Assembly (NCBI RefSeq): GCF_965641715.1
Contig: NZ_OZ282453.1
Origin: Escherichia coli
GTDB lineage: Bacteria > Pseudomonadota > Gammaproteobacteria > Enterobacterales > Enterobacteriaceae
Direction: 5' to 3' (one strand)
DNA: 64,000 nucleotides
Made by a program: the position numbers and the translations under genes. The notes below the pieces were generated by a model. It made no database searches, was not told the origin of the DNA, and saw nothing but the letters and a program-made list of their open reading frames with translations. This document shows, piece by piece, positions 6,755 through 8,280 of this stretch (the stretch's first letter is position 1; every line of letters starts with the position of its first letter).

Positions 6755-7687
6755 ATGCACAGCGTTAACTTCTATTCATTCCGTGTGTTAACCCACAAGG
6801 GCAGCCGAACCAGCAAAAGACTAAACAACCTAGGTTTAGGCGATAAAAAAACAGCATATGAATTATTTGTTGAGTATTTTAATAACTATAAAAACACACC
6901 TATTGAATTTGGTCTCTCGAAAACAAAGGTTTCTCTTGAACAACACACATCACTCACCTTTGATGCTCAAAACCAAGTAATATATGGATATGTAAAGGTT
7001 GGAAAATATGGTGAGAGCAGTGAAATAAAAGACGATAAACTTACTAAAATACGTTATACAACAACTATCAACGATGTAACTCTCAAACAGCGTTACATTT
7101 TAATATTTTTGCCTGACAATTTAGAAGAAGGGATTATAGCATTTCACGCTAATGACAATATTTCTGCTCGCAGCACACTCTCTGATGCATTACTAGACCA
7201 CTTGAAGACAAAATATAAACTTGAAGCGAGAATCAATCCCCTTTGCCACAAAAAAATCCCCCAACACATCCTTGATTCAGAATTAAAACAAATAAAAGCC
7301 CAAGGTTACAAAGCACCAAAGGACATCACGGATGCATTCGGAAATAACAAAACAAACATCAAAACTGATTTGGTAATAAAATCAAATCAAGGCGTATTTG
7401 GTAGTTTTAAAGACTTAAAAGACAAAAAACTAGGAAATATAATAGAAATAATTGAAGATAAGTGTGACGCAATAAAAGTTAGTTTACAATTAGGCAATAG
7501 AACAGTCATTTTTAATTACGACACCATCTTAAGAAAAGGAATTTCTGCCGAATTAGATGATAACGACTTAAACATAAACGCATCTACAGGAATCCCCGAT
7601 CTTAAAGCACTTCATGACACTGTTAAAATCATTGCGAATGATATACTAAGTGAGTTACATAGTGGTAATGGGGGAGTAAAAATATGA
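6755..7687 (+). CDS. 310-aa soluble protein, first gene of an AT-rich two-gene cassette; candidate RexA-like sensor of a phage-exclusion system
   Basis: Clear ORF with AAAAGGA RBS; markedly AT-rich versus flanks; orientation opposite to flanking prophage genes; ATGA overlap with downstream membrane-protein gene; no confident homologue from memory. Confidence 0.45.
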   Translation: MHSVNFYSFRVLTHKGSRTSKRLNNLGLGDKKTAYELFVEYFNNYKNTPIEFGLSKTKVSLEQHTSLTFDAQNQVIYGYVKVGKYGESSEIKDDKLTKIRYTTTINDVTLKQRYILIFLPDNLEEGIIAFHANDNISARSTLSDALLDHLKTKYKLEARINPLCHKKIPQHILDSELKQIKAQGYKAPKDITDAFGNNKTNIKTDLVIKSNQGVFGSFKDLKDKKLGNIIEIIEDKCDAIKVSLQLGNRTVIFNYDTILRKGISAELDDNDLNINASTGIPDLKALHDTVKIIANDILSELHSGNGGVKI

Positions 7688-8238
7688 ACAAGATTAACGT
7701 AATGAGTGTAATAAAAAAACATTACACAACAATGTCGGATCAACGCGGAAATATTTTACTCGAAGACATCGCAATACACTTCATCATTCCTCTTACATTA
7801 TCATTAATCATATGTTTTACCTATGGGATAATGAAAACCTCTATCGCATCTGTTTTTGTTAACTTTGGAGCAATTACTACCGCGCTGTTAATGAGCGCGG
7901 TTATTATGATCTACGATCAAAAACAAAAAACTGCATTTAAAATTTCAGACATTGAGGAAAACAACAAACCACGTTCAAATCTAATAATTTTAAATAATAA
8001 TAAAACCGTATATGAGCAATTATGTCACAATGTTTCTTATGCCATATTAACATCTGTAGCGTTAGTTATTTTTTCGGTTGCGATATATTTTCTCCCAGAA
8101 ACCCCAAGTGAATTAAAAAAATGGTATTTCGCAACCCCTGCTTACATAATCAGTTATTTAGCATACTCATCCTTCTTTTTTACCGTAGTAACATTCTTGA
8201 TGGTTATAAAAAGATTTAGCACAATATTAGATAGTTAA
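7684..8238 (+). CDS. 184-aa polytopic membrane protein (4 predicted TM helices); candidate RexB-like membrane effector
   Basis: Four hydrophobic helices (approx aa 29-50, 54-77, 119-137, 149-174) with a charged central loop; translationally coupled to the upstream gene. Confidence 0.45.
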   Translation: MNKINVMSVIKKHYTTMSDQRGNILLEDIAIHFIIPLTLSLIICFTYGIMKTSIASVFVNFGAITTALLMSAVIMIYDQKQKTAFKISDIEENNKPRSNLIILNNNKTVYEQLCHNVSYAILTSVALVIFSVAIYFLPETPSELKKWYFATPAYIISYLAYSSFFFTVVTFLMVIKRFSTILDS

Positions 8239-8246
8239 ACAATGGA

Positions 8247-8280
8247 ACCGCCGCCCTTTCGGGCGGCTTCCTGATTTTCT
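8247..8280 (+). terminator. hairpin terminator after the two-gene cassette
   Basis: CCGCCC-TTTC-GGGCGG followed by T-rich CTTCCTGATTTTCT immediately after the stop at 8238. Confidence 0.45.

What the first reader, a model, noticed from the sequence alone, without database searches (positions are those of the whole stretch)
6755..8280. AT-rich two-gene cassette in the prophage nin region: 310-aa soluble protein coupled to a 4-TM membrane protein, a candidate RexAB-like phage-exclusion system
Seen in sequence: 6755..8238 is much more AT-rich than its flanks and sits on the strand opposite the surrounding prophage operon. It has its own RBS, the two ORFs overlap by ATGA (7684..7687), and a hairpin terminator follows. 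The second protein has four clear hydrophobic helices with a charged loop between helices 2 and 3. Inference: a soluble protein paired with a small polytopic membrane protein, carried as a prophage moron, is the layout of RexA/RexB-type abortive-infection systems; Kiwa has the same parts in the opposite gene order. From memory the 310-aa protein shows only a weak, unverified resemblance to lambda RexA around ILIFLPDNLEEGIIAFHANDNISARSTLSDAL, and I recognise no characterised family for either protein. It is also not next to the repressor, where rexAB sits in lambda, so it may be a distinct or undescribed system.
Basis: partly seen in the sequence, partly recalled or inferred. Interest (0 to 1): 0.85.

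Follow-up and report, generated by a model that had tools for sequence, protein, structure and literature searches.

The report
RexAB-type two-gene prophage defence cassette
An AT-rich two-gene insert in an E. coli Rac-type prophage encodes a protein with the fold of phage lambda RexA and a four-helix membrane partner, so it is most likely an untested member of the RexAB-like ("Sucellos"-type) family of suicide defences against other phages rather than a new kind of system.

Summary
There are two translationally coupled ORFs: A (6755-7687, 310 aa) and B (7684-8238, 184 aa, four hydrophobic helices). GC is 0.33 against 0.48-0.49 in the flanks. Each ORF has its own RBS and a hairpin terminator follows. 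The cassette lies on the strand opposite the early operon of a Rac-type prophage, next to hok/sok. Both genes are under strong purifying selection.

A belongs to a family of about 600 clusters at 50% identity. In 94 of 95 loci examined, a B homologue follows it directly. The pair occurs in prophages, in a Pf filamentous phage, beside GmrSD genes, and as a two-gene cassette in a Vibrio chromosomal integron. That matches the published "Sucellos" (sclAB) system, a RexAB-like abortive-infection system.

The RexAB-like reading is supported and Kiwa is rejected. Neither protein is a sequence member of the RexA or RexB families. Verdict: a new, untested member of a known kind.

The parts
6606..6633 (+). 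Candidate sigma-70 promoter (TTTACA-16-TATTGT), about 120 nt upstream of A. Weak evidence only.
   Evidence: 9 of 12 consensus matches, but promoter-like sites in the region are no more frequent than in shuffles (10 vs 7.8 +/- 2.6). The published Sucellos cassette is reported to carry its own promoter (bioRxiv 10.1101/2024.07.02.601686).
6744..6748 (+). Shine-Dalgarno sequence (AAGGA) for gene A, 6 nt before the ATG.
   Evidence: Read directly from the sequence.
6755..7687 (+). Gene A: 310-aa soluble basic protein (pI 9.0, 34.9 kDa) with a RexA-like fold. Proposed sensor/activator.
7670..7676 (+). Shine-Dalgarno sequence (GGGGGAG) for gene B, inside the 3' end of A.
   Evidence: Read directly from the sequence. 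Together with the ATGA overlap at 7684-7687 it indicates translational coupling.
7684..8238 (+). Gene B: 184-aa inner-membrane protein with four TM helices, predicted N-in/C-in, and an invariant TM2 motif VNFGAITTALLM. Proposed membrane effector.
   Evidence: It matches PHROG 15250. Its structural neighbours in AFDB are only uncharacterised 4-TM proteins of 175-200 aa. There is no relation to RexB.
8244..8282 (+). Intrinsic-terminator-like hairpin (8244-8271) followed by TGATTTTCTGA.
   Evidence: (-26.5 kcal/mol, z -3.96, 0 of 200 shuffles fold as well).

Best explanation
The cassette is a two-component RexAB-type abortive-infection or exclusion module. It most probably belongs to the family published as Sucellos (sclA/sclB), and it is carried as a moron by a Rac-type prophage of E. 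coli. Shown here: (1) both genes are real, translationally coupled and under purifying selection; (2) A has the RexA/RdgC-type fold, with a split globular domain, an inserted domain and a C-terminal helix; (3) B is a 4-TM protein whose family always follows the A family; (4) the pair travels on prophages, a filamentous phage, an integron cassette and defence islands. Inferred by analogy with lambda RexAB, Sucellos, P. putida RexABpp and Sbash gp30/31: the lysogen expresses the pair from its own promoter. A is probably a DNA-binding dimer. It senses a product or a replication/recombination intermediate of an infecting phage and then activates oligomeric B in the inner membrane. B dissipates membrane potential or integrity, so the infected cell stops growing or dies before the phage completes its cycle.
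For: - **Order of elements.** The secondary-structure order of the model is a beta-rich region 1-165, a low-confidence beta/alpha insert 170-265 and a confident C-terminal helix 283-301. This mirrors the RexA description of a split globular domain, an inserted dimerisation domain and helix alpha8 (PMC11077077).
- **Profile comparison.** A single planned profile-profile test of the A family against the RexA family gave P = 0.0023. It aligned A 154-218 with RexA 128-199, with LEARINPL opposite xxVQIEPLM just before the RexA hinge.
- **AFDB neighbours.** There are 541 hits at E <= 1e-3, several named DUF4747. DUF4747 is the motif reported in Sbash gp30, CarolAnn gp44, Butters gp30 and RexA.
- **Synteny.** A is followed by B in 94 of 95 loci across Gamma- and Betaproteobacteria and a Phycisphaerae MAG.
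- **Contexts.** The pair lies next to two GmrSD genes, next to an integrase, next to the repressor of Pf phage PfAC16, and between VCR-type attC repeats in V. cincinnatiensis.
- **Match to published Sucellos.** Sucellos is described as two genes in one V. cholerae integron cassette, RexAB-like by structure but missed by Pfam. Both genes are required, SclB is a predicted pore, the phenotype is abortive, and homologues are often in Salmonella prophages. The family here has large Salmonella clusters.
- **Homology to the Vibrio cassette pair.** The window proteins align full-length with it: A at E 9e-17 and B at E 4e-15.
- **Selection.** pN is 0.13-0.15 against pS 0.74-0.80.
Against: - No phenotype is available for this cassette.
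- Sequence methods do not link A to RexA (PF15969 or the PADLOC RexA model) or to Pfam DUF4747. None of 134 family members hit either.
- B has no detectable similarity to RexB (P 0.12).
- The inserted domain of the model has pLDDT below 50, so dimerisation is not supported by the model itself.
- I could not obtain the SclA/SclB (VCA0367/0368) or PP_5643/5644 sequences, so identity with Sucellos rests on matching descriptions.
- The RexBpp termini deduced from primers (MLIGQLANP... and ...LYYLGYKLQE) do not resemble the B family.
- A promoter is not demonstrated.
- An AT-rich insert in E. coli may be silenced.
Confidence: 0.7

Rival explanations
1. Butters-type reversed logic, or an addiction module. 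The soluble protein A is the toxic effector and the membrane protein B holds it inactive. The pair would then act as a toxin-antitoxin-like stabiliser of the prophage, or as a defence in which A released from B does the killing.
For: In the Butters gp30/gp31 Rex-like system the cytosolic RexA-like protein is the effector and the membrane protein sequesters it (PMC12894663 discussion). The cassette sits beside another addiction or defence module, hok/sok. In other prophages the same site holds RelE/HTH toxin-antitoxin genes.
Against: In lambda, Sbash, CarolAnn, P. putida and Sucellos the membrane protein is the effector and both genes are needed. B has an invariant polar TM2 motif conserved from E. 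coli to Pseudomonas phage Pf. That level of conservation fits a catalytic or pore role better than a passive anchor.
Confidence: 0.1
2. The pair serves the prophage's own life cycle rather than defence. It could bias the lysis-lysogeny switch, as lambda RexA does independently of RexB, or act as a membrane superinfection-exclusion factor that blocks DNA entry without killing the cell.
For: RexA binds DNA non-specifically and pushes the lambda switch towards lysis (PMC11077077). In Pf phage PfAC16 the pair lies directly beside the repressor and excisionase genes. A is basic, with pI 9.0.
Against: The pair also occurs outside any phage, in a Vibrio integron cassette and next to GmrSD genes. A phage-switch role makes no sense there. 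In this window the cassette is about 5 kb from the immunity region. The strict A-B linkage argues that the function needs the membrane partner.
Confidence: 0.12
3. A Kiwa-like system, with a membrane sensor plus a DNA-binding effector that blocks phage replication or late transcription.
Confidence: 0.03
4. A decaying or silenced passenger with no current function in this strain.
For: The host is a Rac-type prophage of the kind that is often cryptic. The insert is AT-rich, which in E. coli commonly means silencing (general knowledge, not tested). Truncated 131-aa versions of A exist in some E. coli. One viral contig lacks A, and one MAG has A split in two.
Against: Both ORFs are intact here, and exactly these protein sequences occur on 86 and 99 contigs. 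Non-synonymous divergence is about five times lower than synonymous divergence. The RBSs, the coupling and the terminator are intact.
Confidence: 0.05

Closest known systems
Sucellos (SclA/SclB; V. cholerae N16961 superintegron cassette VCA0367-VCA0368; bioRxiv 10.1101/2024.07.02.601686)
   Same: - It is a two-gene module in which both genes are needed.
- It is RexAB-like by predicted structure but missed by the RexA/RexB Pfam models.
- The second protein is a predicted transmembrane pore.
- It has its own promoter and an abortive-infection phenotype.
- Homologues lie mostly in prophages, often in Salmonella.
- The family here includes a two-gene cassette flanked by VCR-type attC repeats in V. 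cincinnatiensis. It also includes clusters from V. metoecus, V. vulnificus and V. parahaemolyticus, and large Salmonella prophage clusters.
   Different: - Identity with SclA/SclB could not be checked, because no sequence was obtainable.
- The E. coli cassette belongs to a divergent Enterobacterales clade, only 21% (A) and 33% (B) identical to the Vibrio cassette proteins.
- It sits in a hok-adjacent prophage site rather than in an integron.
Lambda RexA/RexB (Pfam PF15969/PF15968; PDB 8TWQ)
   Different: - There is no sequence-level similarity.
- The proteins are larger: 310 vs 279 aa and 184 vs 144 aa.
- B has a long cytoplasmic TM2-TM3 helical hairpin that the shorter RexB does not appear to have.
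- The cassette is not next to cI or driven by PRM. It lies in the nin-equivalent region on the opposite strand.
P. putida RexABpp (PP_5643/PP_5644; Sci Rep 2026, PMC12894663)
   Different: HHpred linked RexApp to RexA at 98% probability, whereas the comparison here gave only P 0.0023. The RexBpp termini deduced from primers do not resemble the B family. Direct homology was not testable.
Actinobacteriophage Rex-like systems (Sbash gp30/gp31, CarolAnn gp44/gp43, Butters gp30/gp31; 'DUF4747/CarolAnn system')
   Same: A DUF4747-type soluble protein is followed by a small 4-TM protein, and these are prophage-expressed defences. AFDB structural neighbours of A are annotated DUF4747.
   Different: Pfam DUF4747 hits none of 134 family members. 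The hosts are Actinobacteria. The triggers are specific phage proteins.
Kiwa (KwaA/KwaB)
   Same: Only the inventory matches: one 4-TM protein plus one soluble protein of about 310 aa.
   Different: There is no HMM, Pfam or fold match, and the gene order is opposite.

Membership tests
Lambda RexA family (Pfam PF15969 / PADLOC RexA) | Sequence match to the RexA profile | tested here: not met
   Pfam finds nothing for A or for 134 relatives. The PADLOC RexA model hits lambda RexA at 9e-110 but none of these proteins. hmmsearch in both directions finds nothing. hhalign gives only P 0.0023, probability 12.7%.
Lambda RexA family (Pfam PF15969 / PADLOC RexA) | RexA/RdgC-type fold: split globular domain with a C-terminal helix returning to it | tested here: met
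Lambda RexA family (Pfam PF15969 / PADLOC RexA) | Inserted dimerisation domain; a stable dimer that binds DNA non-specifically | tested here: inconclusive
   An insert is present at 170-265, but its pLDDT is below 50 in the monomer model. No multimer prediction or biochemistry was possible. A is basic, with pI 9.0.
Lambda RexB family (Pfam PF15968 / PADLOC RexB) | Sequence homology of the membrane partner to RexB | tested here: not met
   BLASTP gives E 1.6. There is no Pfam RexB hit. The PADLOC RexB model hits lambda RexB at 8.6e-61 but not B. hhalign of the B family against the RexB family gives P 0.12.
RexAB-type systems (functional class) | RexA-fold gene immediately followed by a 4-TM protein gene, the two co-inherited | tested here: met
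   The two genes overlap by ATGA. B has four TM helices. A is followed by B in 94 of 95 loci.
RexAB-type systems (functional class) | Located beside the prophage repressor and co-expressed with it | tested here: not met
   In the window the cassette lies between hok and the replication genes, about 5 kb from the immunity region. It is beside the repressor in Pf phage PfAC16. This feature is also absent in Sbash, Butters and Rubeelu, so it is not strictly defining.
RexAB-type systems (functional class) | Both genes required for phage exclusion; the membrane protein causes depolarisation or growth arrest when activated | not testable with these tools
   This needs plaque assays, single-gene deletions and membrane-potential assays.
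Sucellos (SclA/SclB) | Two-gene module, RexAB-like by structure, not matched by the RexA/RexB Pfam models | tested here: met
   compared with the description.
Sucellos (SclA/SclB) | Family members occur as a single two-gene cassette in Vibrio sedentary chromosomal integrons and in Salmonella prophages | tested here: met
   In L026 (V. cincinnatiensis) the pair lies between attC repeats at 1185-1319 and 2909-3036. There are Vibrio clusters and Salmonella clusters P0003, P0042 and P0332.
Sucellos (SclA/SclB) | Detectable sequence homology to V. cholerae VCA0367/VCA0368 | not testable with these tools
The supplementary tables with primers and homologues were cut when stored. No V. cholerae member appeared in the clusters that were read.
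DUF4747 / CarolAnn-Sbash Rex-like systems | Pfam DUF4747 domain in the soluble protein | tested here: not met
   None of 134 family members hit DUF4747 at E <= 0.1. Similarity exists only at fold level, to AFDB entries named DUF4747.
Kiwa | KwaA (4 TM) followed by KwaB (DUF4868) | tested here: not met

The most novel reading that the evidence does not exclude
The hok-linked Enterobacterales clade may be a functionally distinct branch of a much larger, largely unrecognised module found across bacteria and archaea: a RexA/DUF4747-fold protein plus a 4-TM protein. Its membrane partner is unrelated in sequence to RexB and carries an invariant polar TM2 motif (VNFGAITTALLM...YDQK). It could be a new kind of membrane effector, with a trigger and phage range different from lambda Rex and Sucellos. 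AFDB hits to both models come from the same genomes with adjacent accessions in Bacteroidota, cyanobacteria, Bacillota and methanogens. Current Pfam, NCBIfam and PADLOC v2 models miss all of it.
Probability: 0.3. Interest if true: 0.6.

Novelty: new member of a known kind. Interest (0 to 1): 0.4.

Why it matters
RexAB is the oldest known abortive-infection system and its mechanism is still unresolved. Only about five Rex-like systems have been studied (PMC12894663).

This work shows that an E. coli prophage cassette annotated only as 'hypothetical protein (x2)' has the RexA fold. It belongs to a family of about 600 clusters at 50% identity with a strictly linked 4-TM partner. That gives a tractable member in the organism with the best phage panels and genetics.

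It also exposes an annotation gap: Pfam, NCBIfam and PADLOC v2 miss the whole family. The invariant TM2 motif of B and the conserved GxxxxGxYGE hairpin of A are ready targets for mutagenesis.

The hok-adjacent site between the replication and nin-like genes of Rac/Qin-type prophages appears to be a variable cargo slot. This rests on a few loci only.

Tried and rejected
- **Kiwa.** No PADLOC, Pfam or fold support, and the gene order is reversed.
- **Direct sequence link to RexA and RexB.** BLASTP, phmmer, hmmsearch in both directions and hhalign gave nothing. The one exception was a weak P 0.0023 for A.
- **Pfam DUF4747 membership.** None of 134 members hit it.
- **PDB sequence searches** with the A and B family profiles returned only chance-level hits.
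- **Megablast against the phage collection** found nothing. tblastn found only two Pf phages.
- **Equating a Pseudomonas B homologue with RexBpp.** I used the seven published mutant positions (W25, F35, L55, T103, S145, G153, Y181). The best candidate matched only 2 of 7, so the test is inconclusive.
- **RexApp/RexBpp termini from primer sequences**. No protein or locus in hand contains them.
- **SclA/SclB sequences.** The stored supplement is cut before the relevant tables. Two cluster look-ups found no V. cholerae member.
- **The search for related loci with the 65-sequence A alignment** failed because it has no conserved stretch. The B motif was used instead.
- **Foldseek of the B model against AFDB** returned only uncharacterised 4-TM proteins, none named RexB or KwaA in the top 50.

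Full report
**1. Observation.** The window holds ORF A (6755..7687, +, 310 aa) and ORF B (7684..8238, +, 184 aa), overlapping by ATGA. GC is 0.328 for the cassette, against 0.482 to the left, 0.491 to the right and 0.482 for the window. Every neighbouring prophage gene is on the minus strand. AAGGA lies 6 nt before the ATG of A and GGGGGAG lies 7 nt before the ATG of B. A hairpin at 8244-8271 folds at -26.5 kcal/mol (z -3.96) and is followed by an imperfect T tract. B has four hydrophobic segments and a charged loop at 77-112. Its AF2 model has four long helices with pLDDT 87. A promoter is not established: promoter-like sites are no more frequent than in shuffles. Against alleles 75% identical in DNA, synonymous sites are saturated (pS 0.74-0.80) while pN is 0.13-0.15. 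Both ORFs are therefore real genes under purifying selection.

**2. Setting.** The window is E. coli chromosome with a Rac-type prophage. Rfam finds RalA, fnrS and McaS. The best-matching genomes annotate intR, recE, recT, ttcA and dbpA. The exact A and B protein sequences occur on 86 and 99 contigs, all named 'hypothetical protein' from E. coli. The left neighbour is a hok/sok locus: Hok at 6173..6385 on the minus strand and an Rfam sok hit at 6323-6497. The right neighbours are ead/Ea22-like, DUF977, DUF1627 and ydaV/ydaU-like replication genes. DUF1367, DUF1364 and DUF1133 lie beyond hok. The cassette is present in 57 of 5,426 complete E. coli genomes, and in the three such loci inspected it lies beside hokD in Rac- or Qin-type prophages. 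hokD itself is in 4,726 genomes, but similarity to the window stops about 200 bp before A. In other prophages the same slot holds other cargo: an ORF6N protein, a methyltransferase with a SMEK-domain protein, or small hypothetical genes. This looks like a variable cargo site.

**3. Sequence searches.**
- A and B have no hit in PADLOC v2, NCBIfam or Pfam.
- They match PHROG 15676 and PHROG 15250, both of unknown function.
- As a positive control, the PADLOC RexA and RexB models hit the lambda proteins at 9e-110 and 8.6e-61 but hit none of this family.
- Close relatives form 37 clusters (A) and 44 clusters (B), and the named ones are from Enterobacterales.
- A profile of the close A family, searched against 1.84 billion representatives, found 593 proteins at E <= 1e-3 and 137 at E <= 1e-10. 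Nearly all are 298-320 aa and aligned end to end.
- None of 134 members tested carries any Pfam domain.

**4. The pair is a unit.** All distant A homologues with downstream DNA are followed by an overlapping or abutting gene of about 180 aa that is a B homologue. Searching genomes with the B motif VNFG[AS]I[TF]TA gave 24 loci. They come from Enterobacterales, Pseudomonas, Halomonas, Vibrio, Aeromonas, Alteromonas, Acinetobacter, Paludibacterium, an Alcaligenaceae MAG and a Phycisphaerae MAG. All have A immediately upstream. The same holds in 61 of 62 IMG/VR viral contigs, 19 of which also carry Hok next door. Pseudomonas filamentous phage PfAC16 carries the pair beside its repressor and excisionase. 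Altogether A is followed by B in 94 of 95 loci. Other contexts are next to two GmrSD genes and next to an integrase.

**6. The membrane partner.** The charge distribution, with K/R in the N-terminus, the 77-112 loop and the C-terminal KR, predicts an N-in/C-in topology with the long TM2-TM3 hairpin in the cytoplasm (inference from the positive-inside rule). TM2 carries VNFGAITTALLM, invariant in the close family. It recurs as VNFGAIFTALLL in Pseudomonas, Vibrio and Pf phage homologues, together with YDQ(K/E)xK and a C-terminal (I/V)KR. B shows no relation to RexB by BLASTP (E 1.6), by Pfam or PADLOC, or by hhalign of family profiles (P 0.12).

**7. Literature.**
- *Sucellos.* A 2024 preprint describes Sucellos (sclA/sclB), two genes in one cassette of the V. 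cholerae superintegron. The primer name 367-368 and the phrase 'Sucellos to VCA0373' point to VCA0367/0368. [quoted passage not shown] Both genes are required, SclB is a predicted pore, infected cells die, a phage pentapeptide-repeat protein counters the system, and homologues are 'preferentially in prophages ... often in Salmonella'.
- *Fit to this family.* In V. cincinnatiensis the A-B pair lies between VCR-type attC repeats, so it is a two-gene integron cassette. Its 90% clusters include V. metoecus, V. vulnificus and V. parahaemolyticus. Salmonella prophage clusters are large. The window proteins align full-length with the Vibrio cassette proteins, A at 21% identity (E 9e-17) and B at 33% identity (E 4e-15). 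I could not obtain the V. cholerae sequences, so the equation with Sucellos is probable but not proven (my estimate is about 80%).

**8. Mechanism.** Best supported (confidence about 0.7): a RexAB-type two-component abortive-infection module.
- *Shown here:* gene reality and coupling, the RexA fold of A, the 4-TM nature of B, strict co-inheritance, and carriage on mobile and defence contexts.
- *Inferred from the studied relatives:* expression in the lysogen; A as a dimeric DNA-binding sensor of an infecting phage's product or DNA intermediate; activation of oligomeric B; loss of membrane potential or integrity; growth arrest or death before phage release.
- *Rivals:* Butters-type reversed roles or an addiction function (0.10), a role in the prophage's own switch or in non-lethal exclusion (0.12), Kiwa (0.03), and a silent remnant (0.05).

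**9. Novelty and score.** The cassette is not a sequence member of the RexA, RexB or DUF4747 Pfam families. It does meet the architectural definition of RexAB-type systems and most likely belongs to the recently named Sucellos family. It is a new, untested member of a known kind, in a divergent Enterobacterales clade with a characteristic hok-adjacent location. Interest is 0.4. It is useful as a tractable E. coli representative and as evidence of a large annotation gap, but it is not surprising to a defence-systems specialist in 2026.

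Noticed in passing
window 6173-6497 (minus strand): A complete hok/sok-type locus (51-aa Hok inside a 70-aa ORF; Rfam sok, 113 bits) sits divergently about 260-370 bp from gene A. 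In 19 of 62 viral contigs carrying the pair, Hok is at the same distance. The two membrane-targeting modules therefore travel together in the Enterobacterales clade.
   Followed up: partly
L036 4000-5500; L037 2778-4567; L038 4488-7063 (E. coli CFT073, 2014C-4587, 20AH011): The slot next to hokD, between hok and the DUF977/replication genes, holds different cargo in other Rac/Qin-type prophages. Examples are an ORF6N-domain protein with a RelE/HTH pair on the other side, a methyltransferase with a SMEK-domain protein, and small hypothetical genes. This looks like a variable moron or defence hotspot.
   Followed up: partly
L035 412-1883 (Pseudomonas phage PfAC16, OR863247.1): An 11.4-kb filamentous Pf phage carries the A-B pair (ORF1/ORF2) directly beside its repressor and excisionase. 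This is a RexA-fold module in an inovirus, in a position resembling that of rexAB next to cI in lambda.
   Followed up: partly
L026 1185-3036 (Vibrio cincinnatiensis contig): The A-B pair is one cassette between VCR-type attC repeats (TAACAAACGCCTCAAGAGGGACTGTCAACGCG...). The contig contains at least four such repeats, so it is part of a sedentary chromosomal integron.
   Followed up: yes
L010 5001-11254 (metagenome contig ERZ27271017): An A homologue has an N-terminal extension of about 110 residues (417 aa). It is followed by B and then by two GmrSD_N (type IV restriction) genes, forming a small defence island. The extension was not analysed.
   Followed up: no
B family, residues 59-82 of window ORF 7684-8238: TM2 and its cytoplasmic end (VNFGAITTALLMSAVIMIYDQKQK) are invariant or nearly so across 33 close homologues. 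They are recognisable in Pseudomonas, Vibrio and Phycisphaerae homologues at under 30% overall identity. That is unusually strong conservation for a transmembrane helix.
   Followed up: partly
L027 5065-5998; L051; clusters P0304 and P0306: Decayed copies exist. A is split into two ORFs in an Alcaligenaceae MAG and is absent upstream of B in one viral contig. Truncated versions of A, 131 aa long, occur on about 31 E. coli contigs.
   Followed up: no
window 20077-20255 (minus), 24565-24682 (minus), 31548-31643 (plus), 2785-2856 (minus): Rfam finds RalA (antitoxin sRNA of the Rac RalR toxin), fnrS, McaS and a tRNA. An AraC-family-like ORF (3274-4077, minus strand) lies next to the tRNA at the late end of the prophage. 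None of these was examined further.
   Followed up: no
P0097 / P0330-P0343 cluster: A second enterobacterial clade of the A family (308 aa) occurs in Enterobacter, Salmonella, Klebsiella, Citrobacter and Cronobacter. It is 58% identical to the Vibrio cassette protein but only distantly related to the window protein. Enterobacteria therefore carry at least two divergent lineages of this module.
   Followed up: partly
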